A stretch of DNA of 64,000 bases from a virus: IMG/VR virus record IMGVR_UViG_3300045918_000146, positions 1 through 64,000 of that record; one strand, written 5' to 3'. Positions 7,147 through 46,266 of the stretch are shown here, one piece after another (positions within the stretch are counted from its first letter, which is position 1; each line of letters begins with the position of its first letter). Below the pieces are notes generated by a model. The model was not told the origin of the DNA. It made no database searches and was given only the letters and a program-made list of their open reading frames with translations. A program made the translations under genes and the position numbers.

Positions 7147-7995
7147 TCACTCTTCCCCATATAATTTCAATACTTCTGAAACTAACGGGTGTCTTTGTAC
7201 ATCAGAATGCCCAAATTCCAATGTTACGATAGAATTGCCACGATAATTCTTAAACCGTTTAAAAAAGTCAGATAAACCATTCTCGGTTACAAATTTCTTA
7301 TCCATCTGTTTTAAATCGCCGGTAATAACCATCTTAGAGCCTTCACCTATACGTGTCAATAACATTAAAGTCATGTTAGAACTTGCTGACTGCATTTCGT
7401 CAGCAACAACAAAGGTATTTTTGAAAGTTCTACCACGTAACATAGATAACGCAGCTAATTCTAATACTTCTTCTTCCAATAAACGGTTCAATTCTTGAAT
7501 GGTATAATATTCTTTAAATATTTCCATTATTGGTACTGCCCATGGTAACAGTTTTTCGGTTAACGTTCCAGGTAAGAAACCATGATTTTCGTTATCTACT
7601 GCAACTGCTGGTCTAGTTATTACAATCTTACTTATTTCACCCCCTTTCAGTGCTTTTATAGCTGCCAATACCCCAAGCCAGGTCTTGCCAGTACCCGCCG
7701 GGCCAGTAGCAAATATAACTAATTTATCTGGGTCCATAAGGTAATCTACATATTCTGACTGTTTTTCTGATTTTGGTGTAATAGATACTGTTTTCCTTTG
7801 TTCAACAAATGATTTAAAATTAAAAACATTATTACTTATTGTGCTACTTCTTGGATTACTACTTTGTCTTTTTCCCCCTTTGTTTGAGATTCTATGTTGT
7901 GGTACTTCTGCTACATCATCAAATGCTACTTTACGGGTAGTTCTACGTTTGGACAAATTTGTTACTCCTTTTCTGAAAGTGAGTTTAGTACTCAC
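7147..7995 (-). CDS. phoH: PhoH-family ATPase
   Basis: GPAGTGKT Walker A, ITRPAV, GFLPG, LRGRTF, DEMQ, TRIGEGSK, GDLKQ, RHPLV. Confidence 0.95.
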   Translation of the reverse strand: MSTKLTFRKGVTNLSKRRTTRKVAFDDVAEVPQHRISNKGGKRQSSNPRSSTISNNVFNFKSFVEQRKTVSITPKSEKQSEYVDYLMDPDKLVIFATGPAGTGKTWLGVLAAIKALKGGEISKIVITRPAVAVDNENHGFLPGTLTEKLLPWAVPIMEIFKEYYTIQELNRLLEEEVLELAALSMLRGRTFKNTFVVADEMQSASSNMTLMLLTRIGEGSKMVITGDLKQMDKKFVTENGLSDFFKRFKNYRGNSIVTLEFGHSDVQRHPLVSEVLKLYGEE

Positions 7996-8154
7996 AATGT
8001 ATTTAACAGTTTAACTTTCCAATTTTAACTAGGTGTGATTTTTTTGGTCGATAGACTAAATAAGAACCTTTAGTGAATTACCGAAAATATGTAAGAACAT
8101 TTTAATGTTCTGCTCTAAAAGGATAAATAAAACATATAGTATAAGGTTATATTT

Positions 8155-8706
8155 ATGACAGTGTCAATCAAAACAGCAATAGAAAACGTAAAAGAAATAA
8201 ATACATCAGATGCAGCGTTATCTACTCTACTAGATATAGAACGAGTTATAGATAATTTAGACATATATGTATTCAAGCACTGGAAACTAGGAGAACTAGT
8301 AGAAGGGCCAATTTTCGAAAAGTATTTCGTAACTACAAAATGGATGTGGGCATACAAGCAAATGCCAGACCCGAGAGGTGGAGAGCAATTACTTAGTTAT
8401 AATTGCGTAGTAACATATAAAAAAGAAAAATTAGAGCATCCAATTAAAATAAAATCCTCTTCGGACTTTAAAGAAGGAACAAAGATCGCAAAGACTACTA
8501 AAATCCCAATTTGGGTCGTAACCATAGTAATGCCTAGAAAATTAATATCTGACATTAGACAAGGTACTATAGAAGTTGAAGGTGAAAAACTAGATATGGC
8601 AGAAATATCTAATTCTTTTGAAGTAGGAATAGACGAAAAAGAATTCAAACAAAACCAAGATAGTATGGAAAAAAATGATACCAATACTGATCAAGGGGGA
8701 TTATAA
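8155..8706 (+). CDS. hypothetical late protein
   Basis: 183 aa; ATAAATA late motif at 8123-8129. Confidence 0.75.
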   Translation: MTVSIKTAIENVKEINTSDAALSTLLDIERVIDNLDIYVFKHWKLGELVEGPIFEKYFVTTKWMWAYKQMPDPRGGEQLLSYNCVVTYKKEKLEHPIKIKSSSDFKEGTKIAKTTKIPIWVVTIVMPRKLISDIRQGTIEVEGEKLDMAEISNSFEVGIDEKEFKQNQDSMEKNDTNTDQGGL

Positions 8707-9318
8707 ATGCATAACTTACAGGAAGGTTTAAATTCTGGCGATCTTGTTAGACTTATAGAACCTAAATTAGCTATTGATGAATTTCGTTCAAAAATGGGCG
8801 AAGATAAAGATATTGTAGTTGTTGGGTTCACAGTATTTGGTAAAGAACCAGGCGAAGACGTAGTTAACTTTATAGAGAAAAGTTACGATTGGGTATTAGA
8901 TGCTGATCTTAGTTCAGGAGAATTATCTGACGGTAATTATCTAGTTTTTGTGGAATTAAGAAGGGATAACACAGCAGCTAAAAAAATATTCTCTATGTTA
9001 CAGGATATTTTACACTTAACAAAACAAAAGATGACAGACTGGAAGTTTACTTATTATAATAGCAAAGATATATATCAGGTAACAGAAGAAAACTTATATA
9101 AAAAGATTATTAAAACTCCTATAGAGTATGATAAAAAAATAGAAAAAGATACAGCTATAGATAAAGTTGTTAAACAAGCAGAGAAAAACAAAGATAAGAA
9201 CGTTGAGGAAAGTAGAGAATTAAACAAATTACGTGCGTTAGCGAATGTATATGTACAGCCAGTAAAAGTTACAGATCTACCGTTATTAGCACTACAAGTT
9301 GTAGCAGGTATTAGATAA
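8707..9318 (+). CDS. hypothetical, probably virion/head-associated protein
   Basis: 203 aa; begins MHNLQE-G (L-x-E site); ends LQVVAGIR. Confidence 0.7.
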   Translation: MHNLQEGLNSGDLVRLIEPKLAIDEFRSKMGEDKDIVVVGFTVFGKEPGEDVVNFIEKSYDWVLDADLSSGELSDGNYLVFVELRRDNTAAKKIFSMLQDILHLTKQKMTDWKFTYYNSKDIYQVTEENLYKKIIKTPIEYDKKIEKDTAIDKVVKQAEKNKDKNVEESRELNKLRALANVYVQPVKVTDLPLLALQVVAGIR

Positions 9319-9327
9319 AGGTATATC

Positions 9328-9957
9328 ATGACAATAACATTAACGGTTGAACAAATAAAAGAGATAGTTCCAACAGCTACACAAGTAGAAGAATGGTGTG
9401 AAGTATTTAACAATAACTTTTCAGATGCAGAAATAGACACTAATGAACGCATTGCGGCATTTATTGCACAATCAGCAGTAGAATCTCAATGCTTTACACA
9501 CTTACACGAGAACTTAAATTACAGAGCTGAATCTTTATTAAAATTGTGGCCTAAACATTTTACCGTGTCTCAAGCTAATGAATGTGCTCATAATCCAGAA
9601 AAAATAGCTAATCGTGCTTATGCGAATAGGAATGGTAATGGAGATGAAACATCCGGAGATGGTTATAAGTATAGAGGTAGAGGATTATTGCAAATTACAG
9701 GCAAAGCAAATTATGCACTGTGTAGTCAATATATGTATGGAGATGATACTTTAGTCCAACAACCAGAGTTACTAGAAACAGATATGGACGTGGCGGTATC
9801 TAGTGCTCTTTGGTTTTGGAGTACGCATAAGTTAAATAATCATGTGGATGCAAATAACTTTAAAATGGTTACACAAAAAATAAATGGCGGACAGACAGGT
9901 GCAGCAGAAAGAGAAGAGTACTTTCATATTGCACTAACTGTATTACAACAAGGATAA
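9328..9957 (+). CDS. glycoside hydrolase family 19 endolysin
   Basis: AAFIAQSAVES, ENLNY, DGYKYRGRGLLQITGKANY, TQKINGG. Confidence 0.92.
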   Translation: MTITLTVEQIKEIVPTATQVEEWCEVFNNNFSDAEIDTNERIAAFIAQSAVESQCFTHLHENLNYRAESLLKLWPKHFTVSQANECAHNPEKIANRAYANRNGNGDETSGDGYKYRGRGLLQITGKANYALCSQYMYGDDTLVQQPELLETDMDVAVSSALWFWSTHKLNNHVDANNFKMVTQKINGGQTGAAEREEYFHIALTVLQQG

Positions 9958-30848: not shown

Positions 30849-33599
30849 ATGAGTTATATAGATGCGTTTTTAGAAAAAGATAAAGATGTTATTCACATCG
30901 TTGAACGAGATAAAACAGGTAAAAGAATATATAAAGATATATCGGCGCTGTATGAATTTTATTACGATGACCCAAAGGGAAAATATCAAACTATTTATAG
31001 AACATCAGTAAGCAAAATTACCACTAATAGTAATAAAGAATTTCGTAAAGAATTAAAGATGCAAGGAAATAAAAAAACATGGGAAGCAGACTGTAATCCT
31101 GTGTTTAAGTGTTTAGAAAAAAACTACTTGGGAGTAGAGTCTCCCAAGTTACATACGTGTTTTCTGGACATTGAAACAGACTGGAACTCTGGAGAAGATA
31201 CCACGAATCCGATTGGTTATGCCCCAACGGATAATCCATACAACAAAATTACTGCAATTACCATTTACTTAGATTGGATGGATAAGCTAATTACGCTAGC
31301 ATTACCTCCCAAATCATTAACCCGGGAATCTGCTGCAGAAATAGCAGCTAAATTCGATGATACTTATTTATTCCAAAAAGAATCTGAGATGCTTGATACT
31401 TTCTTAACTCTTATTGAGGATGCAGATGTATTAAGTGGCTGGAACTCTGGAGGTTACGATATACCATATATAGTAGGGCGTATCATACGTACCTTAGCTA
31501 AAAACGATTTACGAAGATTATGTTTATGGGATCAAATGCCCAGAGAACGGAAATTTGAGAAATATGGTGCAGAACAAATCACATATGACCTAATAGGCCG
31601 TGTGCATTTAGACTATATGGACCTTTATAGAAACTATACATATGAAGAACGTCATAGTTATTCACTAGATGCAATCGGAGAACACGAACTAGATGAACGT
31701 AAAGTATCTTATGAAGGATCATTAGATCAACTATATAATCAAGATTTTTATAAATTTCTTGATTATAATAGACAAGATGTAGTGTTACTAGCAAAATTAG
31801 ATAAGAAGTTAAAATTTTTAGATTTAACAAACGAAGTAGCACATAGTAACACCGTACTATTACCAACTACTATGGGTACTGTTGCGTTAGTAGATCAAGG
31901 TATTACCAACGAAGCACATCAACTAGGTTATATTGTACCCAATAGACCACAACATAAATCTGTTACGACGTTTGATTCAGACGGTGAAGAAACAACTCAA
32001 CAAGATCGTGCAGCCGGTGCGTATGTTGCATACCCTAAAGTTGGTATGCATGAATATATAGGTGCTATAGACATTAATTCACTATATCCTTCTACTATAC
32101 GTGCATTAAATATGTCACCTGAAACTATCGTAGGTCAATTAAGACCTATAATGACAGATCAATATATTGCCAATAAAGTAGATGCTGGTGCATCTTTTTC
32201 CGGAGCATGGGAAGGTTTATGGGGGTCGTTAGAATATACAGCAGTAATGGAAATGGACCGTAATACAGAGGTTACTATAGATTGGGATAATGGAGATAAA
32301 CCGTCTGTTCATTCAGCTAAAGAGGTATGGAGCATCATCTTTGAGAGTGGTCAAAAATGGATGCTTAGTGCTAACGGTACTATTTTTAAATATAACTACG
32401 AAGGTATTTTACCGTATATGCTTGCTAAGTGGTATTCAGAAAGAAAAGAACTTCAAGCTAAGAAAAAAGCTGCCACCGAAAAAGAAGAAATATTATTTTG
32501 GGACAAAAAACAACACGTAAAAAAAATTCTATTAAATTCGGCATATGGAGCCGCGTTAAACGCACATTTTAGATACCACGATTTTAGAATTGGGCAAAGT
32601 ACTACATTAACTGGGCGTATTATTACTAAACACATGACGTCCTTTATTAATGAATGTTTAACTGGCGTCTATCAATATGACGGCAACGCCGTCATATATT
32701 CGGATACTGACAGTGCATATTTCTCAGTGTGGCCAATTATTAAAGATGATGTTAAAGCAGATAAAATGGAATGGAATAAAGATATATGTGTTCAACTGTA
32801 CGATGGAATAGCTGAGCAAGTAAATGAAAGTTTTCCAGCTATAATGGAAAAACAATGTCATTGTCCAAAAGATCGCGGGTCATTGATTAAGGGTGGACGA
32901 GAACTTATTGCAACAAGTGGAATATATGTAACAAAAAAACGTTATGCTGTGTTAGTATACGATTTAGAAGGTACGCGATTAGATCAACTAGACGAGACAA
33001 CAGCAAAGAAAAAAGGTATTCATTATGGCTTAGGAAAAGTAAAAGCTATGGGTCTCGATTTAAAGCGTAGTGATACTCCGAAGGTAGTACAGGAATTTTT
33101 AAGTCGCATCTTACTTGATACTCTATTACACAAACCGCGAGAGAAAGTAATAGAACATATTATTGAATTCAAATTATCATTTGCTAAACTCCCAGCGTGG
33201 GAAAAAGGTACGCCTAAACGTGTAAATAACTTAACTAATTATATCGAAACAGAAGAGCGCGAAGGTAAGTCGGGTATGCCAGGGCATGTCAGGGCAGCAT
33301 GGAACTGGAATAACTTAAGAAAAATGTATAATGATAATTATTCTCTTAAGATAGTAGACGGAATGAAGATCATCGTATGTAAGTTGAAGAATAATCCACT
33401 AGGATATACAAGTGTTGCTTACCCAATTGATGTCTTGCATATACCAGATTGGTTTAAAGACTTGCCATTTGATAATGCTTTAATGGAAGCAACTATTGTA
33501 GATAAAAAAGTGGAAAACTTATTAGGCGTATTAAAGTGGGATTTGGCAAATTCAACACAAACGAATTCAACGTTTGATTCTTTATTTAGCTTTGTGTAA
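30849..33599 (+). CDS. family B DNA polymerase
   Basis: Exo motifs DIET, GWNS.GYDIPY, YNRQD; pol motifs DINSLYPS, KILLNSAYG, YSDTDS, KKRYA. Confidence 0.97.
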   Translation: MSYIDAFLEKDKDVIHIVERDKTGKRIYKDISALYEFYYDDPKGKYQTIYRTSVSKITTNSNKEFRKELKMQGNKKTWEADCNPVFKCLEKNYLGVESPKLHTCFLDIETDWNSGEDTTNPIGYAPTDNPYNKITAITIYLDWMDKLITLALPPKSLTRESAAEIAAKFDDTYLFQKESEMLDTFLTLIEDADVLSGWNSGGYDIPYIVGRIIRTLAKNDLRRLCLWDQMPRERKFEKYGAEQITYDLIGRVHLDYMDLYRNYTYEERHSYSLDAIGEHELDERKVSYEGSLDQLYNQDFYKFLDYNRQDVVLLAKLDKKLKFLDLTNEVAHSNTVLLPTTMGTVALVDQGITNEAHQLGYIVPNRPQHKSVTTFDSDGEETTQQDRAAGAYVAYPKVGMHEYIGAIDINSLYPSTIRALNMSPETIVGQLRPIMTDQYIANKVDAGASFSGAWEGLWGSLEYTAVMEMDRNTEVTIDWDNGDKPSVHSAKEVWSIIFESGQKWMLSANGTIFKYNYEGILPYMLAKWYSERKELQAKKKAATEKEEILFWDKKQHVKKILLNSAYGAALNAHFRYHDFRIGQSTTLTGRIITKHMTSFINECLTGVYQYDGNAVIYSDTDSAYFSVWPIIKDDVKADKMEWNKDICVQLYDGIAEQVNESFPAIMEKQCHCPKDRGSLIKGGRELIATSGIYVTKKRYAVLVYDLEGTRLDQLDETTAKKKGIHYGLGKVKAMGLDLKRSDTPKVVQEFLSRILLDTLLHKPREKVIEHIIEFKLSFAKLPAWEKGTPKRVNNLTNYIETEEREGKSGMPGHVRAAWNWNNLRKMYNDNYSLKIVDGMKIIVCKLKNNPLGYTSVAYPIDVLHIPDWFKDLPFDNALMEATIVDKKVENLLGVLKWDLANSTQTNSTFDSLFSFV

Positions 33600-35125: not shown

Positions 35126-35731
35126 ATGATAAGTTATCGAAAAATTTACGAACATCATTTCGGTCATATACCAAAAGAAGCAAACGGAAGAACGTATGAA
35201 ATACATCATATAGATGGTAATCATTATAATGATCTACCTGAGAATTTAATAGCAATGACTATTCAAGAACATTATAACATACATTATGCTCAAGAAGATT
35301 GGGCAGCATGTCTTGCCATTTTAATGAGAATGGATAAAACACCTGAAGAAATATCAAAAGAGTGTAGTGTTTTATCCAGCAAAAATGCACAAAAAAGAGT
35401 TGAAAATGGAACGCATAACTTTTTAAGAGACAAAAATCCTAACAGTAGACGTCTTGCAGACGGAACAAGTTATGCTTTTGACAGAGTTAAGAATGGCACT
35501 CTTCCTTCGTTACGTAGGGCCGACGGTACAAGTTTAACACAAGAACAAGTCGCTAAGGGGATTCATAACTTTCTTGGCGGAGCGTACCAATTAGCTCAAT
35601 TAGAATCTGGAACACACACAACTCAAATAATAAAAACTTGCCCATACCGTAATAGAGAATTTAATGCGCCAATATACGGTCATTTGCACGGCGAAAAATG
35701 TAAACTAAAAGGATTAAATAATGGTAAATAA
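35126..35731 (+). CDS. free-standing HNH homing endonuclease
   Basis: YRKIYEHHFG, YEIHHIDGNHYNDLPENL, EHYNIH; repeated GTHNFL DNA-binding motifs. Confidence 0.85.
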   Translation: MISYRKIYEHHFGHIPKEANGRTYEIHHIDGNHYNDLPENLIAMTIQEHYNIHYAQEDWAACLAILMRMDKTPEEISKECSVLSSKNAQKRVENGTHNFLRDKNPNSRRLADGTSYAFDRVKNGTLPSLRRADGTSLTQEQVAKGIHNFLGGAYQLAQLESGTHTTQIIKTCPYRNREFNAPIYGHLHGEKCKLKGLNNGK

Positions 35732-37355
35732 GAATATTGCACAAGTTGATTTAACAGCAAGACAAGAAAGGCCAGACGGGCTACCAAACACTGCGATTTA
35801 TCTGCCAGCTTTGAGCTCATTTTTTTCATCCACGTTAGCAAAATATACTGATGCTATAAATGCAGATCCAAAAAGGATGCCTATCGCTTTTAATAATGGG
35901 TACGAAGGTCTAAATTGGTTAGATAAATCTCAAGGCTATTTCCATTATAAATGGTTACTTTACAGCGCGGGACATGCCAACATTGATATAACCGAAATAA
36001 GCCCAAAAGAAAGTATGATCAGAGATCGTGATAGACAGCATAGCTTTGTTTTGGGCGATAGTGGGGGATTCCAAATAGGTAAAGGAGTATGGGAAGGTAA
36101 ATGGAAAGATCCATCTTGCCCTAAAGCATTATCTAAACGCCAACAAGTATTATCTTGGTTTGACAAATATATGGATTATGGTATGTGTTTAGATATTCCT
36201 GTATGGGCGTGTAACGTACCAGGAGTACCTGAAAAAATTGGAATTTATTCATATCAAGATGCAGTAGATGCAACTATTATTAACAATGACTATTTTATAC
36301 AGCATAGGACCGGAGAATGTAAATTACTTAATGTTATGCAAGGTGAAAGTTTAGATGAAGCCAATGCATGGTATGATACCTTTAAAAAGTACTGTGACCC
36401 AATACAATACCCAGAAAAACATTTTAATGGGTGGGCAATGGGTGGGCAAACTGTAACTGATCCCGAACTAATGTTAACTAGGTTAGTTAACATCGTATAT
36501 GACGGATTATTACAACAAGGAAAACATAATTGGATACACTTTTTGGGTTTAGGTAAATTACCCTGGGCATGTTTTTTAACTGATGTCCAAAATTCATTAC
36601 GTAAGTACCATAATCCAGATGTTACTATTAGTTTCGACTCAGCTTCGCCATTCTTAATGGTAGCTAACGGCGGAATTTACATTAACATGGTTACACATGA
36701 TAGAGGTAAATGGTCAACTATTATGGATAGATCTATTGATGATCGTAAATTTTCGTCAGATACTAGACTCTTCAGCGAAGTATTAAAGGAAGAGAAAAAA
36801 TATAAGCAATTTGATGAATCTCCAATTAGTTTAAGATGTAAGTGTAACGACATCTGTTACTATAAACCAGGAGATGTTAATAAGTTAGGAAAAGTAGGAC
36901 GAACTAGTTGGGATATGATTAGTTATGCAGTACAAATGTGTCATAATGTATTTGCACATGTTGACTCTGTACAACGTGCTATCGTAAAATATTTAACCGA
37001 AGATATTTACCCATCTCAACTAATGCATGAAAAATTTCATTCTAAGGAAATGGTATTTAGAGATGTAGTTGATACTATATTTGCGTGTAAAACTAAAGCT
37101 GAAGCAATGGCTATTGTTAAACATAATCAACCATATTGGATGAAATTGAGTGGTAGCAGAGGGTTTAGGGGTAAAAGGACAATCAACGCCACTACTAAAT
37201 TTAAAACATTATTTGAAGTAATAGATGAATCGCCAAAAGTAAAATCATTATCCTCTGCTGAGGAGTTTGACAATATTGGAGAAGAATCTGATTATAATGG
37301 TGTTTTTGATCAGAATTTGGACAAACTAGAGCATGACTTATTTGAAGAAATGTAG
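35721..37355 (+). CDS. dpdA: DpdA / tRNA-guanine-transglycosylase-like DNA transglycosylase
   Basis: GDSGGFQ, MCLDIP, LNVMQG, GWAMGG, IHFLG, SFDSASP, HN motif; linked to que genes. Confidence 0.8.
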   Translation: MVNKNIAQVDLTARQERPDGLPNTAIYLPALSSFFSSTLAKYTDAINADPKRMPIAFNNGYEGLNWLDKSQGYFHYKWLLYSAGHANIDITEISPKESMIRDRDRQHSFVLGDSGGFQIGKGVWEGKWKDPSCPKALSKRQQVLSWFDKYMDYGMCLDIPVWACNVPGVPEKIGIYSYQDAVDATIINNDYFIQHRTGECKLLNVMQGESLDEANAWYDTFKKYCDPIQYPEKHFNGWAMGGQTVTDPELMLTRLVNIVYDGLLQQGKHNWIHFLGLGKLPWACFLTDVQNSLRKYHNPDVTISFDSASPFLMVANGGIYINMVTHDRGKWSTIMDRSIDDRKFSSDTRLFSEVLKEEKKYKQFDESPISLRCKCNDICYYKPGDVNKLGKVGRTSWDMISYAVQMCHNVFAHVDSVQRAIVKYLTEDIYPSQLMHEKFHSKEMVFRDVVDTIFACKTKAEAMAIVKHNQPYWMKLSGSRGFRGKRTINATTKFKTLFEVIDESPKVKSLSSAEEFDNIGEESDYNGVFDQNLDKLEHDLFEEM

Positions 37356-37390
37356 TACAATAATTTAATAACTTTTAAAGGATTAACGTA

Positions 37391-38008
37391 ATGGCAAAAC
37401 GATTTGAAACAACCATGTTTGGACTCCCTATTATTATGCGCCACGATTATGAGGATAAGGTTCTCCAAGAAAAACTTAAAGAATATCAAGGAAAGTCTTA
37501 TAACGCATTTACACATTTCTTAACCAATGTACCAAATTTTAAATATGATAGTTTTTTGGATGTGGGTTGCGGAGACGACTGGGTTGTTAATATGGCAAAA
37601 AACGAGTTTAAGGTGTCAAAAGGTATTGACCTTTTTATCGAAGATAACGAATATGACAACGTAGTGAAGTCGGATTGGAACACTATGTCAAAGGACGTAT
37701 TCAACAGCAATAGGTTTAATGCTATTTTTATTAATCATAGCATGGAACATGCTGCTAATGTATATCAATTAATGGAGCAAGTAACTTCATTACAGAAGAA
37801 GGGCGATAGCTTATTTGTTGCAGTACCTGATGGTAATACACCATTTGGCTATGCTATTACTAGCTCAACGACACATTTTTCGTGTATTACTGAAGGTTAC
37901 TTACGCACTACATTGCAACGTTTTGGGTATATGGTAGAAGTAGAGGTTAAAGAGCTACGCCCAGGTGCTCGAGAACTTTGGAGTTATGCGATTAAGATGA
38001 CAGATTAA
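37391..38008 (+). CDS. class I SAM-dependent methyltransferase
   Basis: FLDVGCG motif I, GIDL, INHSMEH, FVAVP. Confidence 0.85.
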   Translation: MAKRFETTMFGLPIIMRHDYEDKVLQEKLKEYQGKSYNAFTHFLTNVPNFKYDSFLDVGCGDDWVVNMAKNEFKVSKGIDLFIEDNEYDNVVKSDWNTMSKDVFNSNRFNAIFINHSMEHAANVYQLMEQVTSLQKKGDSLFVAVPDGNTPFGYAITSSTTHFSCITEGYLRTTLQRFGYMVEVEVKELRPGARELWSYAIKMTD

Positions 38009-38077
38009 TAACCAATTATCTTGTAATTTAATACTATAAACTTGTAATATTAACTATATAACTAATTGGAGTAACGA

Positions 38078-38827
38078 ATGAGCAACACCACAGTATCTCT
38101 TATGTTTTCTGGAGGTTTGGATTCTTTAATTTCTTATCATTTTGCGTTAAAAACTGGACATATACCGCAAGCAATACACGTAGATTTAGGGCATCCGTAT
38201 TCAAGTTTTGAAAATGAAGCTATTAAGGTAGCAGAAGAGAAATTTAAAATAGATGTCACACGTATTGATATGAAGTCGCTGTATCCTGCTATTGAAAAAA
38301 GGTTATCTAATCAAATAATTCCGAGTCGTAACGTATTACTTGCTACTATAGGATCTATGTTTAATTCTACAGTATGGATTAATGCTCTCGACGGCGAAGC
38401 CAATGGTAAGGAGCATGATAAATCTTATCGTTTTTTTGCAGATAGTTCAGAACTACTTAGCTTTACTAATTCGTTTTTTCAAGATCATACTAATGTAACA
38501 AGTCCATTCTTACATCTATCTAAAGCAGAAACGATTAAGTGGGCTTTAGAAAATAGTTTATCTAAAGAAGATTTATTTAATACCGTAACTTGTTATTCAG
38601 GAACACATAAGAAATGTGGACGTTGTCTTACTTGCGTAAAACGGTATATGGCATTTAAATTAAATGGTGTTGAAGAACCAGGTTATGATTTTAACCCTTT
38701 AGAATCTCCGTATGCAGAAGAACTTGCTATAGAAATGCAAAAAGCAATTGATAATAATGACCATAGTAGGTTTAATCAAAAACGTATTGCTGAATGGTTA
38801 ATGTTAAAAAATAACCAAGTATATTAG
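38078..38827 (+). CDS. queC: 7-cyano-7-deazaguanine synthase
   Basis: SGGLDS, PSRNVLL, SKAETI, TCY...CGRCLTC. Confidence 0.85.
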   Translation: MSNTTVSLMFSGGLDSLISYHFALKTGHIPQAIHVDLGHPYSSFENEAIKVAEEKFKIDVTRIDMKSLYPAIEKRLSNQIIPSRNVLLATIGSMFNSTVWINALDGEANGKEHDKSYRFFADSSELLSFTNSFFQDHTNVTSPFLHLSKAETIKWALENSLSKEDLFNTVTCYSGTHKKCGRCLTCVKRYMAFKLNGVEEPGYDFNPLESPYAEELAIEMQKAIDNNDHSRFNQKRIAEWLMLKNNQVY

Positions 38828-39319: not shown

Positions 39320-39775
39320 ATGGCAGGAACGTATGCTAAAGTTATACCTGATGTAGCAACTACTCATCGAATAGCTGCTATATTAGATCTATTTAATATA
39401 GAAAATGCCGCAGCTCCATGCGATCTACATGTTACCGTTGTCTATAGTAAACAGGAATGTGCATCAGTTAAAGATATTAGTGTGCCAACACCAATAAAAG
39501 CATCTGGTGCATCTCTTCAATTATTTCCAAATGCTGATGGATCAAAATGTTTAGTGGTGGAATTAGATAGTCCTGCATTGCAGGAATTACATTGGTTATG
39601 TAGAAATGAACATAATGCATCGCACGATTATCCAACTTATAGGCCACATATTACACTAAGTTATGACTATTCTGGCGAAATAATACCAAATAGTTCTTTA
39701 CTTGGACACTTTCATACATTATACTTTAATCAATATGTAGTAGAACCATTAAATGTAGACTGGGAATCATATTGA
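39320..39775 (+). CDS. 2H phosphoesterase, Acb1/T4 gp57B-like anti-CBASS candidate
   Basis: GTYA start; two HxT motifs LHVTVVYS and PHITLSYD; HDYPTYRPH. Confidence 0.8.
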   Translation: MAGTYAKVIPDVATTHRIAAILDLFNIENAAAPCDLHVTVVYSKQECASVKDISVPTPIKASGASLQLFPNADGSKCLVVELDSPALQELHWLCRNEHNASHDYPTYRPHITLSYDYSGEIIPNSSLLGHFHTLYFNQYVVEPLNVDWESY

Positions 39776-39852: not shown

Positions 39853-40542
39853 ATGTTAATATCAGATCAAATTAAAAATAGGATTATAGAAGCAGGTGCA
39901 GACTTCCATGCTAACAATAACATATCTGCTTATATTAAAGATGGAGAACTTGATCAACTAAAGCACGAACTAACTGAAAAATTTCAAGCGGTATTAAAAA
40001 GTTTGGTTATTGATGTCGAAAATGACCCTAATTCCAAAGGAACAGCAAAGCGTCTTGCTAAAATGTATGTTGATGAAATTATGTCAGGACGTTATAATGC
40101 CCCGCCAAAAGTTACATCATTTCCAAATACCGAAAAACTCAAATATGAAGGTATGCTTGTAGTTAGGTCAGAAATAAAATCAATGTGCAGTCATCACCAT
40201 CAACCAGTAACTGGGATTGCTTATATTGGAATTATCGCAGCTCATAAGTTAATTGGACTTTCAAAATACACACGACTAGCACAATGGTGTGCAAGACGCG
40301 GAACATTACAAGAAGAATTGTGTAATGATATTGCAGATGAGATTGCTAAAGCAACAGGAAGCGAAAATGTTGGGGTATATTTACAACTTCAGCATGGGTG
40401 TTGCTCCAATAGAGGAATTATGGCACACGATAGTACGACTCAAACAACAGTATTGCGCGGAGATTTTTTTAATAGACCAGAGACACGAAAAGAGTTCTTT
40501 GATAATATTCATTTACAAGCAATACATAACAACAAATATTAA
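39853..40542 (+). CDS. folE: GTP cyclohydrolase I
   Basis: TAKRLAKMY, SMCSHHHQP, IGLSKYTR, LQEEL, HGCCSNRG. Confidence 0.95.
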   Translation: MLISDQIKNRIIEAGADFHANNNISAYIKDGELDQLKHELTEKFQAVLKSLVIDVENDPNSKGTAKRLAKMYVDEIMSGRYNAPPKVTSFPNTEKLKYEGMLVVRSEIKSMCSHHHQPVTGIAYIGIIAAHKLIGLSKYTRLAQWCARRGTLQEELCNDIADEIAKATGSENVGVYLQLQHGCCSNRGIMAHDSTTQTTVLRGDFFNRPETRKEFFDNIHLQAIHNNKY

Positions 40543-41849: not shown

Positions 41850-42362
41850 ATGAATGTTAAAAAAGAATATATTTCATTTGATGAAGTAAAAGGTTACTGC
41901 CTTGATATCGCAGTACAAATGATTGAGGACAACTGGAAACCAGAACTCATTATTGGTATAACTAGAGGGGGAGCATTACCGGCTGTTTTACTTAGTCAGT
42001 TTTTTAAGTGTAAAATGATAGGACTCGATGTTTGTTTAAGAGATAATGCAGACTTTGATATGGGTCCTGAATCAAATTGCTGGGCAGCAGAATTAGCTAT
42101 GGATAGCAAGAAAATACTTATCGTCGACGACATAAACGATACTGGGGCAACTATTAATTGGATTATCAACGACTGGGATTACGATAAATCGTATAATGCC
42201 ATGTGGGGAGACAATGTTCGTTTTTCTACTATTGTACAAAACGAGAGTAGTAAAGCAATGGTTACTCCGCAATATTACGGGTACGAGGTTAATAAAGCAG
42301 AAAATGATGTTTGGATTGAATTTCCTTGGGAAAATTGGTGGAGAGTAGATCAAAAAGTATGA
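41850..42362 (+). CDS. purine phosphoribosyltransferase (Gpt-like)
   Basis: GITRGG, ILIVDDINDTGAT PRPP motif, WIEFPWE. Confidence 0.9.
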   Translation: MNVKKEYISFDEVKGYCLDIAVQMIEDNWKPELIIGITRGGALPAVLLSQFFKCKMIGLDVCLRDNADFDMGPESNCWAAELAMDSKKILIVDDINDTGATINWIINDWDYDKSYNAMWGDNVRFSTIVQNESSKAMVTPQYYGYEVNKAENDVWIEFPWENWWRVDQKV

Positions 42363-43173: not shown

Positions 43174-43470
43174 ATGATTACACCTTATCAAGATGAAGTT
43201 CTAACTATATTAACAGAAGAGTGTGGAGAAACTATTCAAGAAATATGTAAAATTAAACGTTTTGGTTTATCTAATCATAGTCATCATGTAGAAGGAAAAA
43301 CTCATTTAGAGTGTCTCACACAGGAATTGGGAGATCTACTAGCAATGATACAGATGATTAAGGAATCAAATATTGGCATAACAGACGAAGGACTAGCAAT
43401 ATGTAAACAGAAGAAATTAGATAAAGTAGTTAAATGGATGACGCATAAAAACCAATTAATCCAATTTTAG
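43174..43470 (+). CDS. MazG-like NTP pyrophosphohydrolase
   Basis: EECGE...QELGDLL. Confidence 0.75.
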   Translation: MITPYQDEVLTILTEECGETIQEICKIKRFGLSNHSHHVEGKTHLECLTQELGDLLAMIQMIKESNIGITDEGLAICKQKKLDKVVKWMTHKNQLIQF

Positions 43471-44094: not shown

Positions 44095-44253
44095 ATGGAT
44101 AAGCTTATTAACCAATTAACGACGGTAGATCTAGTGCTAGCGAAAAAAGAAAAAGAAAAAGAAAAAGAATTAAGGAACTTATATACTGCGGTGCAAAAAG
44201 CGTATGACGAGTATCAATTATTATTAGCAATTACAATTAAGGAGAATATATGA
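44095..44253 (+). CDS. small hypothetical protein, possibly the 3' half of a split gene
   Basis: (gaaaaa)n repeat encoding KEKEKEKE; AVQKAYDEYQLLL; overlaps the queD start. Confidence 0.45.
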   Translation: MDKLINQLTTVDLVLAKKEKEKEKELRNLYTAVQKAYDEYQLLLAITIKENI

Positions 44254-44801
44254 GTTACAAATGGGTTATTGATAAATCATTTACGTTTGAGGCCGGACAC
44301 AGAGTTTGGAGCCAACAGCTAAATAATCCCGAGTTAAGTATTAGTACAGAATGTGCCTGTAAACATTTGCATGGACATTCGTATGTGATTAAGGTATTCT
44401 TAGGTGCAAATAGACTTGATGATAGTCAAATGGTTACAGATTTCAAAAACTTAAACTTTATGAAAGAATTTTTAGATGACGTATTGGATCATAAATTTAT
44501 AATTGATGTGAACGACCCACTTTTTAAGAGGATAACTGGTAAGATAGCACCAAGTAGTATTAAAGACTTTACAAATTTTGGCTCTTTCTTAAGAGGTAGT
44601 ATAGATGAAGATGGTACTATATGCTTACTCAATGAAGATCAACTATTAGATAGTTTTGTATTAGTAAATTTTGTACCCACCTCTGAAAATATTTGCAAAT
44701 ACCTGTTTGACTATGCACGCGATATTATTGGTAATGTAGCTACAGTAACAGCAGTTGAATTATGGGAAACCAAAAAATCGCATTGCAGATACGAAGTGTA
44801 A
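44250..44801 (+). CDS. queD: 6-carboxytetrahydropterin synthase
   Basis: FTFEAGHRV, CKHLHGHSY, DHKF, PTSENI, LWET. Confidence 0.93.
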   Translation: MSYKWVIDKSFTFEAGHRVWSQQLNNPELSISTECACKHLHGHSYVIKVFLGANRLDDSQMVTDFKNLNFMKEFLDDVLDHKFIIDVNDPLFKRITGKIAPSSIKDFTNFGSFLRGSIDEDGTICLLNEDQLLDSFVLVNFVPTSENICKYLFDYARDIIGNVATVTAVELWETKKSHCRYEV

Positions 44802-45384: not shown

Positions 45385-46266
45385 ATGAGTAAAATAAAAG
45401 TATCAGAAATTTTTCGTGCACTTCAGGGTGAAGGCAAATATATGGGGGTTCCAAGTGTATTTGTACGAACGTTTGGATGTAACTTTCGATGTAGGAACTT
45501 TGGAAGATCAGGTGTAGATTACTTAGATGATACAGTTAAACGGAATCCAGAAGTAAACAACATAATAAAGAATATTAATATATATAAGTCATATAGTGAT
45601 CTACCTTTAGTTAAGTCGGGATGCGATTCTTACCCTGCTGTATATCCAGAATTTAAGAATCTAAGTCCGTCTTTTACAACAACAGAATTATCGGAGAAGA
45701 TAGTTGATATACTTCCAAATAAACAATGGAAAGACGAGCATTTAGTTATTACCGGAGGAGAACCATTACTTGCAGGATGGCAGAACTCTTATATAGATTT
45801 ACTAGAAGAGAAGACGATGCTATCTTTAAAGGAACTCACATTTGAAACTAACGGAACACAGGGTTTATCAACAAACCTACGTGACTATTTAATTAACTGG
45901 GGTAGAGATAACGAGTATAGAGGTATCAATGCTATGACCTTTTCGGTAAGTCCAAAACTAAGTTGTAGCGGCGAAAGTAAGATAGAAGCTATAAATCCGG
46001 ATATCGTATGTTCTTATGAAGAAGTTGGTGCTACTTACTTAAAGTTTGTTATTGCCACTAATTTAGACGCGGAAGAAGCATTAGAAGCAGTTTATATGTA
46101 TAGACAAGCAGGTTTTGAAGGTCCGGTATATTTTATGGCTGTGGGCGGAGTAACAGACGTATATAACTTAAATAATAAAAATGTTGCAGAGTTAGCATTG
46201 AAACTTGGAATTAGATATAGTTCTAGAATTCAAGTTGAGCTATTCAAGAATGCATGGGCAACTTAA
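45385..46266 (+). CDS. queE: 7-carboxy-7-deazaguanine synthase (radical SAM)
   Basis: EIFRALQGEG, FVRTFGCNFRC...GCDS, ITGGEPLL, FETNGT, SVSPKL. Confidence 0.93.
   Translation: MSKIKVSEIFRALQGEGKYMGVPSVFVRTFGCNFRCRNFGRSGVDYLDDTVKRNPEVNNIIKNINIYKSYSDLPLVKSGCDSYPAVYPEFKNLSPSFTTTELSEKIVDILPNKQWKDEHLVITGGEPLLAGWQNSYIDLLEEKTMLSLKELTFETNGTQGLSTNLRDYLINWGRDNEYRGINAMTFSVSPKLSCSGESKIEAINPDIVCSYEEVGATYLKFVIATNLDAEEALEAVYMYRQAGFEGPVYFMAVGGVTDVYNLNNKNVAELALKLGIRYSSRIQVELFKNAWAT

What the first reader, a model, noticed from the sequence alone, without database searches (positions are those of the whole stretch)
35721..38827. SAM methyltransferase wedged between dpdA and queC: possible new 7-deazaguanine DNA base
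Seen: dpdA-like, class I MTase (LDVGCG) and queC are contiguous, with folE, queD and queE within 8 kb. No QueF, ArcS or Gat-QueC is recognisable in the window. Established: FolE-QueD-QueE-QueC make preQ0, and DpdA swaps 7-deazaguanines into phage DNA for anti-restriction. Inference: the MTase may methylate the inserted base or an intermediate (for example a CDG/ADG/preQ1-type derivative), giving a base other than plain dPreQ0. It lacks the NPPY/DPPY or PC motifs of ordinary DNA MTases.
Basis: partly seen in the sequence, partly recalled or inferred. Interest (0 to 1): 0.8.

Follow-up and report, generated by a model that had tools for sequence, protein, structure and literature searches.

The report
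Phage deazaguanine cluster with dedicated methyltransferase
An uncultured giant phage carries the genes that swap guanine in its DNA for a 7-deazaguanine, plus a small virus-only methyltransferase that almost always sits beside the queC gene, so its DNA may carry a methylated base not yet described.

Summary
Window 35721-38827 is three co-oriented genes. The first is a 544-aa protein with no Pfam, PHROG or PDB sequence hit but a tRNA-guanine-transglycosylase (TGT) fold, homologous to phage DpdA2-like proteins. The second is a 205-aa class I SAM methyltransferase. The third is a phage-type QueC. FolE, QueD and QueE lie within 7.5 kb. No QueF, ArcS-type, GATase_7 or DpdM (DUF3109) domain was found in the 79-kb record, which is about 21% complete.

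The methyltransferase belongs to a small, sharply bounded family. No close relative turned up in a pattern-seeded scan of 185,579 prokaryote species or among 50,697 phage records. Of 29 distinct family members with context, 24 have a QueC gene beside them on the same strand; four are cut by contig ends and one is unclear. The pair occurs with two different DpdA types. The window's closest backbone relative lacks the pair, so it moves as a module.

Fold and charge point to a small-molecule enzyme, not a DNA methylase. It is not DpdM. The closest precedent I found is HuiC, which methylates free preQ0.

Which atom is methylated, and whether the methyl reaches DNA, is untested. The scan noted the same kind of operon on another genome (e1-5999595).

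The parts
35721..37355 (+). TGT-fold DpdA-like protein (544 aa) of the type found in Pseudomonas phage PA5oct; candidate DNA guanine transglycosylase
   Evidence: No Pfam or PHROG hit. NCBIfam tgt_general only E 0.0018, below its cut-off. AF2 pLDDT 84. Foldseek matches Z. mobilis TGT at probability 1.00; VIA Z 17.8. BFVD hits include Vibrio phage nt-1 R9TGF0 at 1.4e-10. hhalign against DpdA2-like phage proteins gives 99.8%, E 3.5e-28. D113-SGGFQ, D158 and D306 are invariant in 27 of 27 sequences; the CxCxxC zinc motif is not conserved.
37391..38008 (+). Class I SAM-dependent methyltransferase (205 aa), small-molecule type, of a virus-only family linked to queC
   Evidence: PF13489, E 1.9e-10. 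AF2 pLDDT 91. Foldseek neighbours are MtmC, KijD1, TcaB9, NovO, CouO and BioC. 35 columns are invariant in 26 sequences, including D57, G59, G61, D80, N115, H116, E119, H120 and H162. Adjacency to queC is shown.
38078..38827 (+). Phage-type QueC (clade 'QueC-A', 249 aa); ATP-dependent enzyme acting on 7-carboxy-7-deazaguanine
   Evidence: PF06508, 1.8e-19; phrog_1550, 8.8e-30. SGGLDS, IPSRN and C(x)7CxxCxxC are present; EHDKS stands where canonical QueC has YPDC. The clade holds 21 rows with SH-aLRT 100 in a quick tree.
39853..40542 (+). GTP cyclohydrolase I (FolE)
   Evidence: PF01227, 1.4e-37; NCBIfam NF006824, 2.1e-42.
41850..42362 (+). Purine (xanthine/guanine-type) phosphoribosyltransferase; possible accessory of the pathway, role unknown
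   Evidence: PF00156, 9e-11; NCBIfam NF006613 xanthine PRTase, 5.5e-13, below its cut-off. tblastn relatives lie in 12 of the 89 viral-contig loci (some are second cuts of one contig). A PRTase also lies in the PA5oct cluster.
43174..43470 (+). MazG-like NTP pyrophosphohydrolase; possible accessory
   Evidence: PF03819, E 2.2e-4, near its cut-off; phrog_4856, 5.6e-16.
44250..44801 (+). 6-carboxytetrahydropterin synthase (QueD)
   Evidence: PF01242, 1.2e-27; phrog_2389, 2.9e-36.
45385..46266 (+). 7-carboxy-7-deazaguanine synthase (QueE, radical SAM)
   Evidence: phrog_2076, 2.4e-44. NCBIfam QueE models reach 8e-13 on the N-terminal motif only. The Radical_SAM Pfam hit is weak.

Best explanation
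This is a phage 7-deazaguanine DNA-modification cluster.

FolE, QueD and QueE make 7-carboxy-7-deazaguanine (CDG) from GTP. That is the established pathway, and the genes are shown here.

The phage-type QueC converts CDG with ATP and ammonia into the amide (ADG) and/or the nitrile (preQ0). This is inferred from family membership.

The 205-aa class I SAM methyltransferase is a dedicated tailoring enzyme of this pathway. It most likely methylates the free 7-deazaguanine base made by QueC, before insertion, in the way HuiC methylates free preQ0. The linkage is shown; the substrate and the atom are inferred.

The TGT-fold DpdA-like protein then exchanges guanine in phage DNA for the (methylated) base. 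This is inferred from fold, homology and context.

The predicted outcome is a +14 Da 7-deazaguanine deoxynucleoside in virion DNA that blunts restriction. A methyl on the C7 side chain (N-methyl-ADG, or a CDG methyl ester) or on N2 would leave base pairing intact.
For: Pathway genes.

DpdA-like fold and homology.

[quoted passage not shown] Its authors take this to mean modified G (PMC12191111, passages).

Linkage:
- 12 of 12 IMG/VR loci with the MTase have a QueC gene (49-63% identical to the window's) next downstream.
- Over IMG/VR plus metagenome loci there are 29 distinct MTase sequences. 24 have a same-strand QueC within about 1 kb, 4 are cut by contig ends, and 1 (L114) has none in the 1,060 nt upstream.
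- In a 36-40%-identical subgroup the order is QueC-MTase-QueD-QueE.
- Four still more distant Methyltransf_23 genes also sit just upstream of a QueC.

Module behaviour: the pair occurs with PA5oct-type and with DpdA2-like TGT genes. The closest backbone relative, L054 (polB 71%, DpdA-like 65%), has another QueC (29%) and no MTase in its 20-kb record. The window's QueC is nearest to L103 (62%), whose TGT-like gene is only 26% identical to the window's.

Family range: no close relative in a pattern-seeded scan of one genome per 185,579 prokaryote species; best match 26%, partial. None in 50,697 phage records. Only 11 representatives at E<=1e-30 among 1.84 billion.

Small-molecule character.

SAM-motif residues are invariant.

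Precedent: HuiC O-methylates free preQ0 (bioRxiv 10.64898/2026.04.15.718813, passages).
Against: - No chemistry was measured. No cultured phage carries this MTase.
- Gene adjacency shows linkage, not the substrate.
- 4 of 16 IMG/VR contigs with QueC-A have no MTase in the part held. The MTase is therefore dispensable for a working pathway.
- QueC-A pocket motifs look the same with or without the MTase. They give no clue to a changed substrate.
- The correlation of MTase and QueC identities (r 0.94; 0 of 5000 permutations reach it) would also arise from shared descent of whole genomes.
- A purine phosphoribosyltransferase and a MazG in the cluster leave room for a nucleotide-level route in which the MTase acts on a nucleotide.
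- The DpdA-like family lacks the TGT zinc motif and has never been assayed.
Confidence: 0.5

Rival explanations
1. The MTase methylates the 7-deazaguanine after DpdA has placed it in DNA. This would make it a functional analogue of DpdM, which methylates dPreQ1.
For: In the window and in several relatives the gene lies between the dpdA-like gene and queC. Cui et al. 2023 propose that DpdM acts on the base in DNA (PMC10516641, passages).
Against: - Only 205 aa, with no target-recognition or DNA-binding domain.
- No (D/N/S)PP(Y/F/W) or PC motif.
- The family is acidic: median pI 5.4, net charge -7.
- Nearest folds are small-molecule MTases.
- The constant neighbour is queC, not dpdA. In L012, L009 and L110-L113 no TGT-like gene abuts it.
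Confidence: 0.15
2. The MTase acts before or instead of the QueC step and the methyl never reaches DNA. Examples: a transient methyl ester on CDG (a BioC-like disguise), or methylation that diverts or inactivates host queuosine precursors.
For: BioC, a carboxyl methyltransferase, is among the fold neighbours. Several invariant Arg and His residues (R17, H18, R177, R190) could bind a carboxylate.
Against: QueC needs the free carboxylate (established mechanism). I searched for no esterase and recognised none in the cluster. QueC is kept in every assessable locus, so the MTase does not bypass it.
Confidence: 0.12
3. The MTase has a job unrelated to 7-deazaguanine (tRNA, protein or another metabolite) and merely travels with queC.
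For: Class I MTases are common phage accessory genes; the Atlas lists many viral clusters of similar fold. The function of this family has never been tested.
Against: Adjacency survives a change of gene order (QueC-MTase in the distant subgroup), a change of DpdA type and a change of phage backbone. Unrelated ORFs insert between the two genes in some loci without separating them.
Confidence: 0.1
4. The QueC-like and TGT-like pair does not modify DNA. Instead it conjugates a deazaguanine to a protein, as Cap9 and Cap10 do in type IV CBASS, or it makes a free nucleoside or nucleotide.
For: The best PDB sequence hit of the window's QueC is Cap9 (9nto_B, E 1.3e-5), slightly better than QueC 2pg3 at 5.2e-5. 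A purine PRTase, a MazG and an Acb1 anti-CBASS gene lie in the same stretch.
Against: - A full FolE-QueD-QueE set lies next to the DNA polymerase in a lytic T4-like phage.
- The TGT-like protein is homologous to DpdA2-like proteins of the type in phage nt-1. nt-1 DNA holds dPreQ0, dADG and dG+ (PMC6884629, passages).
- PA5oct DNA resists G-site restriction enzymes.
Confidence: 0.05

Closest known systems
Phage DpdA / preQ0 DNA-modification clusters (DpdA1, DpdA2; e.g. Vibrio phage nt-1, Enterobacteria phage 9g, Escherichia phage CAjan; Hutinet et al. 2019, PMC6884629)
   Same: FolE, QueD, QueE and QueC plus a TGT-family transglycosylase, in a phage. The window's TGT-fold protein is homologous to DpdA2-like proteins (hhalign 99.8%; BFVD hit to an nt-1 protein).
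   Different: - No amidotransferase (ArcS, Gat-QueC or QueF-L) was found.
- The TGT-like protein is a longer form (544 aa) with no Pfam TGT hit and no conserved zinc motif.
- A class I MTase is built in next to queC. The main text of PMC6884629 holds neither 'methyltransferase' nor 'methylase'.
[quoted passage not shown] 2023, PMC10516641)
   Same: A methyl-adding enzyme inside a phage 7-deazaguanine cluster. It yields a methylated DNA base (mdPreQ1).
   Different: DpdM is a DUF3109 metal-binding protein with a CxxxCxxCC motif and needs preQ1, hence QueF (passages). The window enzyme is a class I Rossmann-fold SAM MTase. No DUF3109 or QueF is present. The substrate must therefore differ.
HuiC, the SAM-dependent preQ0 O-methyltransferase of huimycin biosynthesis in Kutzneria albida (as described in bioRxiv 10.64898/2026.04.15.718813)
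   Same: A SAM-dependent MTase with a glycine-rich SAM motif that methylates the free 7-deazaguanine base made by FolE, QueD, QueE and QueC (passages).
   Different: HuiC belongs to a bacterial secondary-metabolite pathway without DpdA. O6-methylation would disturb base pairing, so another atom is likelier here. I could not obtain HuiC's sequence, so homology beyond the shared superfamily is untested.
Wroclawvirus PA5oct 7-deazaguanine region (MK797984.1, EST35_0311-0325)
   Same: Same synteny: DNA polymerase, structural protein, 541-aa homologue of the TGT-fold protein (35.5% identical), PRTase, QueE, RNase H. Its DNA is reported resistant to several G-site restriction enzymes.
   Different: No MTase of this family. 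The slot after the TGT-like gene holds other genes, with weak glycosyltransferase-like and epimerase-like hits.

Membership tests
Class I SAM-dependent methyltransferases (Pfam clan of PF13489/PF08241) | Rossmann-like fold with glycine-rich motif I, plus acidic residues that hold SAM | tested here: met
   PF13489, 41 bits against a cut-off of 27. Foldseek probability 1.00 to SAM/SAH-bound MTases. D57, G59, G61, D80 and D95 are invariant or nearly so in 26 sequences. The roles of these residues are recalled, not tested.
DpdM (phage dPreQ1 methyltransferase) | DUF3109 fold with the CxxxCxxCC metal motif | tested here: not met
   No DUF3109 hit for the protein or in the 79-kb record. The MTase has 2 Cys in all.
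Orthodox DNA methyltransferases (N6A/N4C and C5) | Catalytic (D/N/S)PP(Y/F/W) or PC...ENV motifs, plus a target-recognition domain | tested here: not met
   Neither motif is in the translation. The protein has 205 aa in a single domain. No DNA MTase appears among the 42 Foldseek rows shown. This is a listing, not an exhaustive exclusion.
HuiC-like preQ0 methyltransferases | Sequence homology to HuiC, and activity on free preQ0 | not tested
Only the shared superfamily and the pathway context are known.
DpdA / TGT superfamily | TIM-barrel TGT fold | tested here: met
   Foldseek E 7e-7, probability 1.00. VIA Z 17.8, 299 residues aligned, rmsd 4.2.
DpdA / TGT superfamily | Match to the curated TGT sequence models | tested here: not met
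   No PF01702 hit at E<=0.01 or in the record. TIGR00449 reaches E 0.0018 with 17 bits against a cut-off of 47.6.
DpdA / TGT superfamily | Homology to a named phage DpdA subfamily | tested here: met
   hhalign of A2 against 12 DpdA2-like and related phage proteins: 99.8%, E 3.5e-28 over 339 columns, with DSGGFQ aligned on DSGGxQ. Two rows of that set hit nt-1 and Stenotrophomonas phage 'queuine tRNA-ribosyltransferase' genes. A third, L017, hits Pfam TGT at 1.9e-7. The other nine rows were not checked one by one.
DpdA / TGT superfamily | CxCxxC...H zinc site (recalled from TGT structures) | tested here: not met
   Only C379 is invariant. C373 occurs in 5 of 27 sequences and C375 in 2 of 27.
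DpdA / TGT superfamily | Guanine-for-7-deazaguanine exchange in DNA | not testable with these tools
   Indirect only: PA5oct DNA resists restriction enzymes.
Canonical QueC (PF06508 cluster 1 of Libby et al. 2026, PMC13329287) | SGGxDS P-loop and VPxRN motif | tested here: met
   SGGLDS at residues 11-16 and IPSRN at 81-85, invariant in the clade. Pfam score 70.5 bits against a cut-off of 22.
Canonical QueC (PF06508 cluster 1 of Libby et al. 2026, PMC13329287) | YxQxHxxE and YPDC substrate-pocket motifs; C(x)8CxxCxxC | tested here: not met
   The window protein has LGHPYSSFE and EHDKS instead, and C(x)7CxxCxxC. The QueC equivalog TIGR00364 scores 53 bits against a cut-off of 150. Most phage QueCs in the 81-sequence set share the D(K/R)(N/S)-type replacement. 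This is therefore a trait of phage QueCs in general, not only of the MTase-linked clade.

The most novel reading that the evidence does not exclude
The MTase-QueC module makes a natural 7-deazaguanine DNA base that has not been described: a methylated ADG, preQ0 or CDG, +14 Da. The base is inserted by an unnamed, zinc-less DpdA subfamily. Relatives of that subfamily number more than 5,500 in metagenomes. In related giant phages the slot between dpdA and queC holds alternative tailoring enzymes (this MTase, or an inositol-phosphate-synthase-like enzyme; PA5oct has weak glycosyltransferase-like and epimerase-like hits). If so, this phage group may hold a whole series of undescribed guanine hypermodifications.
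Probability: 0.4. Interest if true: 0.78.

Novelty: new variant of a known kind. Interest (0 to 1): 0.62.

Why it matters
Eight 7-deazaguanine derivatives are known in phage DNA, and only one methylating enzyme (DpdM) has been tied to them. A second, unrelated methyltransferase, wired to the QueC step and working without QueF, would add a new base and a new enzyme chemistry to this anti-restriction toolkit.

Such a base matters for three reasons:
- It affects how phage DNA is read by sequencing.
- It affects which restriction, CRISPR and modification-dependent nucleases can cut the DNA.
- It widens the enzyme set for making modified DNA.

The claim is directly testable with three or four synthetic genes in E. 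coli. The accompanying TGT-fold family is large, unannotated and linked to the cultured jumbo phage PA5oct, which offers a laboratory entry point.

Tried and rejected
- Looked for the MTase in cultured phages by tblastn of 50,697 records. No match, so no isolate is available for a test.
- Megablast of the 6-kb region against the same records: no match.
- Pfam, PHROG and PDB sequence searches of the 544-aa protein, alone and as a profile, gave nothing. Only fold and profile-profile comparison placed it.
- Considered that the MTase is DpdM-like. Rejected.
- Considered an orthodox DNA MTase. Rejected on motifs, size and fold neighbours.
- Considered that QueC-A has a pocket special to the MTase. 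Rejected: most phage QueCs share the YPDC replacement, and QueC-A motifs do not differ between loci with and without the MTase.
- Considered that the ORFs inserted between the MTase and QueC in some relatives belong to the module. Rejected: they are unrelated to each other and occur elsewhere, in either orientation. None of the three that I scanned (L002, L008, L009) has a credible Pfam hit.
- Looked for a hidden MTase elsewhere on the four MTase-less QueC-A records and on L054. None found, but these records are 6-25% complete.
- A weak QueF hit in one MTase-bearing record (E 0.002, 14 bits) falls, by my coordinate conversion, on its FolE gene. I dismissed it.
- The careful tree search did not finish within 300 s. 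The quick IQ-TREE tree is used.
- The match of 'longest contig' lengths between MTase and QueC-A clusters (32 of 52 MTase clusters of 2 kb or more) is only a rough proxy. I give it no weight.
- Supplementary tables of PMC10516641 and PMC6884629 list all phage genes found by their authors. I could not see them. They may already list PA5oct-type proteins or this MTase.
- Literature searches for a class I MTase tied to phage queC or dpdA found none. 'DpdA5' and 'DpdA6' occur in no paper held.

Full report
WHAT IS THERE.

The window is the first 64 kb of a 79,029-base IMG/VR virus record that CheckV rates 21% complete. It is a fragment of a large T4-like phage. It encodes a family B DNA polymerase at 30849-33599, a DenV-like glycosylase and a 5'-3' exonuclease, and Acb1. 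GC content is about 34% throughout and no tRNA gene was found.

At the finding's coordinates lie three + strand ORFs separated by 35 and 69 nt: 35721-37355 (544 aa), 37391-38008 (205 aa) and 38078-38827 (249 aa). Purine-rich ribosome-binding stretches precede the second and third. The scan places no terminator-like site in either gap. Co-transcription is therefore plausible but not shown.

An HNH homing-endonuclease gene (35126-35731; PF13392, phrog_12324) overlaps the start of the first ORF by 11 nt.

THE THREE GENES.

(a) The 544-aa protein.
- It has no Pfam, PHROG or PDB sequence hit, alone or as a 27-sequence profile. It has only a sub-threshold NCBIfam tgt_general hit (E 0.0018).
- It carries GDSGGFQ.
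- Its AlphaFold2 model (27-row alignment, pLDDT 84, pTM 0.85; the tail 481-544 is disordered) matches tRNA-guanine transglycosylases. Foldseek gives probability 1.00 at E 7e-7. VIA gives Z 17.8 to T. maritima TGT (299 residues aligned, rmsd 4.2) and Z 17.5 to archaeosine TGT.
- Among viral models it hits unnamed proteins best. It then hits Achromobacter phage Motura 'tRNA guanine transglycosylase' (5e-11), Vibrio phage nt-1 R9TGF0 (1.4e-10) and, weakly, Cellulophaga phage phiST M4SLA5 (7e-4).
- A profile-profile comparison with 12 TGT-like proteins from other phage que clusters gives 99.8% probability and E 3.5e-28 over 339 columns, with DSGGFQ on DSGGxQ. Of those 12, two hit DpdA2-type genes of nt-1-like and Stenotrophomonas phages and one hits Pfam TGT.
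- D113, D158 and D306 are invariant in 27 of 27 relatives. The TGT-type CxCxxC zinc motif is not conserved: only C379 is invariant.
- The family is very large in metagenomes: 5,582 proteins at E<=0.001 among the 8,000 candidates scored, all unnamed and without Pfam domains in the 120 listed.
- Among cultured phages the best homologues (35.5% identity) are 'hypothetical proteins' of PA5oct-like Pseudomonas jumbo phages, in the same synteny behind the DNA polymerase.
- Only bDpdA and DpdA1-4 are named in papers I could search.
- My reading: a DpdA-like DNA transglycosylase of an unnamed subfamily. The activity is inferred.

(b) The 205-aa protein.
- It is a class I SAM methyltransferase (PF13489, E 1.9e-10), with LDVGCG at residues 56-61.
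- Its model (pLDDT 91) is closest to small-molecule enzymes. These include the sugar C-methyltransferases MtmC, KijD1 and TcaB9, polyketide O-methyltransferases, NovO and CouO, and BioC.
- The family is acidic: median pI 5.4, net charge -7 over 26 members.
- It lacks DNA-MTase motifs.

(c) The 249-aa protein.
- It is a QueC-family enzyme (PF06508, 1.8e-19) with SGGLDS, IPSRN and a four-Cys motif.
- It has LGHPYSSFE and EHDKS where canonical QueC has YxQxHxxE and YPDC. The canonical motifs are taken from PMC13329287, sections 6 and 8.
- That replacement is shared by most phage QueCs in my 81-sequence set. It marks phage QueCs in general.

THE REST OF THE PATHWAY.

FolE (39853-40542), QueD (44250-44801) and QueE (45385-46266) are present. 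Between them lie Acb1, a xanthine/guanine-type phosphoribosyltransferase (41850-42362), a MazG-like pyrophosphohydrolase (43174-43470) and DenV.

No QueF, Pfam TGT, GATase_7, DUF3109 or DUF5591 domain is found in the 79-kb record. No QueF above cut-off is found in 4 other MTase-bearing records of 37-125 kb, one of them 70% complete. All these records are fragments.

IS THE MTASE TIED TO THE PATHWAY?

Size and range of the family:
- 74 clusters at E<=0.001 in the 5.8-billion-protein index, at 37-100% identity to the query and all from metagenomes.
- An exhaustive profile search of 1.84 billion representatives finds 11 at E<=1e-30 and 54 at E<=1e-10. Below that comes the generic class I background.
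- No close relative appears in a pattern-seeded scan of one genome for each of 185,579 prokaryote species. The best match is 26% identity over part of the protein.
- None appears in 50,697 phage records.

Gene context:
- In IMG/VR, 12 of 12 loci have a QueC 49-63% identical to the window's next downstream, and FolE and/or QueE within the flanks.
- In metagenome contigs, 18 loci hold an MTase at 49% identity or more. 15 have that QueC downstream, and the other 3 end within 250 nt of the MTase.
- Pooled and de-duplicated, there are 29 distinct MTase sequences including the window's. 24 have a same-strand QueC within about 1 kb (23 by HMM; L105 as a partial tblastn hit). 4 are cut by contig ends (L098, L107, L108, L115). 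1 (L114) has no QueC in the 1,060 nt upstream and only 165 nt downstream.
- In the 36-40%-identical subgroup the order is reversed, QueC-MTase-QueD-QueE. Pfam confirmed this in the 3 loci I scanned of the 4 that the HMM places in that order.
- Four still more distant Methyltransf_23 genes (24-27% identity by tblastn for L041, L043 and L074; L052 only by HMM, 41 bits) also sit just upstream of a QueC.

The converse is looser:
- The window's QueC clade ('QueC-A') is cut off from other phage QueCs by an identity gap: 49% or more against 36% or less. It is a 21-row clade with SH-aLRT 100 in a quick tree.
- It sits on 16 IMG/VR contigs. 12 have the MTase and 4 do not, either in the flanks or in the rest of those fragmentary records.
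- The protein index shows about 112 QueC-A clusters at 47% identity or more, against about 72 MTase clusters at 46% or more.

A MOBILE MODULE.

The pair is found next to PA5oct-type TGT genes (window, L007, L008, L010, L100, L101). It is also found next to DpdA2-like ones (L001, L002, L006; L003 and L009 nearby).

The window's closest backbone relative is L054: polB 71%, TGT-like 65%, PRTase 56%, QueE 58%, Acb1 about 50%. It keeps the synteny. But between the TGT-like gene and queC it has a 402-aa Inos-1-P_synth-like gene (PF01658, 1.5e-19) plus a 140-aa ORF. Its QueC is of another clade (29% identity), and it has no MTase. L075 and L072 carry the same alternative set. PA5oct has weak glycosyltransferase-like and epimerase-like hits there.

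Conversely, the window's QueC is nearest to that of L103 (62%), whose TGT-like gene is only 26% identical to the window's.

On the QueC tree the label 'MTase-adjacent' needs at least 5 changes.

Pairwise identities of the MTase and its QueC correlate across 21 loci (r 0.94; 0 of 5000 permutations reach it). Shared descent of whole genomes would give the same result, and the deep split of the distant subgroup drives much of it.

HOW IT MOST LIKELY WORKS.

Shown: the genes, the folds, the linkage and the module behaviour.

Established knowledge: FolE, QueD and QueE make CDG. QueC turns CDG into ADG and then preQ0 with ATP and ammonia. DpdA-type enzymes exchange guanine in DNA for such bases (PMC6884629 and PMC10516641, passages).

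Inferred:
- The MTase methylates a free 7-deazaguanine at or just after the QueC step. Four observations point this way. QueC is its constant neighbour. QueC needs a free carboxylate. QueC-A works without the MTase in some phages, and its pocket motifs do not change with the MTase. The MTase looks like a small-molecule enzyme.
- A precedent exists. HuiC, a SAM-dependent MTase of huimycin biosynthesis, O-methylates free preQ0. Divergent QueC homologues (RoyL) make amides with other amines (bioRxiv 10.64898/2026.04.15.718813, passages).
- For a base meant for DNA, O6 or N1 methylation would disturb pairing. A methyl on the C7 side chain or on N2 seems likelier. This is my inference, and I have no evidence for the atom.

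The phosphoribosyltransferase could recycle the guanine that DpdA releases, or could make a deazaguanine nucleotide. I could not decide which.

KNOWN OR NEW.

The system is a known kind. The MTase is not DpdM, which belongs to DUF3109. I found it in no paper searched. The main text of PMC6884629 holds neither 'methyltransferase' nor 'methylase'.

Within this scan the same stretch was noted again (e1-6098636). Other follow-ups report different MTase families beside DpdA genes. I did not test those.

VERDICT.

I rate it a new variant of a known kind, with interest 0.62.

Noticed in passing
window 35721-37355; L091 (PA5oct) 7968-9590: The TGT-fold protein belongs to a very large unannotated family: 5,582 metagenome proteins at E<=0.001 among the 8,000 scored, with no Pfam domain in the 120 listed. 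The family lacks the TGT zinc motif. In papers I could search it is not among the named DpdA subfamilies. Its cultured members are 'hypothetical proteins' of PA5oct-like jumbo phages, Sinorhizobium phage Phosso and a Vibrio jumbo phage.
   Followed up: partly
L054 8417-10849; L075 8426-10753; L072 7558-10819: In the window's backbone relatives the slot between the TGT-like gene and queC holds a 400-443-aa myo-inositol-1-phosphate-synthase-like gene (PF01658; E 1.5e-19, 1.3e-20 and 7e-9), a 120-140-aa ORF and a QueC of a different clade. This may be an alternative tailoring module.
   Followed up: partly
window 41850-42362 and 43174-43470: A xanthine/guanine-type phosphoribosyltransferase and a MazG-like pyrophosphohydrolase lie inside the cluster. 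tblastn relatives of the PRTase occur in 12 of the 89 viral-contig loci, and a PRTase lies in the PA5oct cluster. It could salvage the guanine released by DpdA, or it could hint at a nucleotide-level route.
   Followed up: partly
window 35126-35731: An HNH / intron-like homing-endonuclease gene is wedged between the structural-protein gene and the TGT-like gene and overlaps the latter's start by 11 nt. Relatives L054 and L072 show no ORF at this place, while L007 and L010 have a 122-123-aa ORF there that I did not identify.
   Followed up: no
L002 8349-8876; L008 2363-2902; L009 10642-11508; L097 5480-6454; L100 3976-4368: In several relatives an ORF of 130-324 aa is inserted between the MTase and queC. 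These ORFs are unrelated to one another. Some have copies elsewhere in other loci, in either orientation. They look like selfish insertions; none of the three scanned has a credible Pfam hit.
   Followed up: partly
window 39320-39775: An Acb1 anti-CBASS phosphodiesterase gene (PF23474, 1.7e-23) sits between queC and folE. The relatives L054 and L055 have it at the same place.
   Followed up: no
protein P0273: One QueC-A cluster (54% identical) has a longest contig of 708,930 bases from an NCBI record. This is either a very large phage or a cellular genome that carries the clade. Context was not seen.
   Followed up: no
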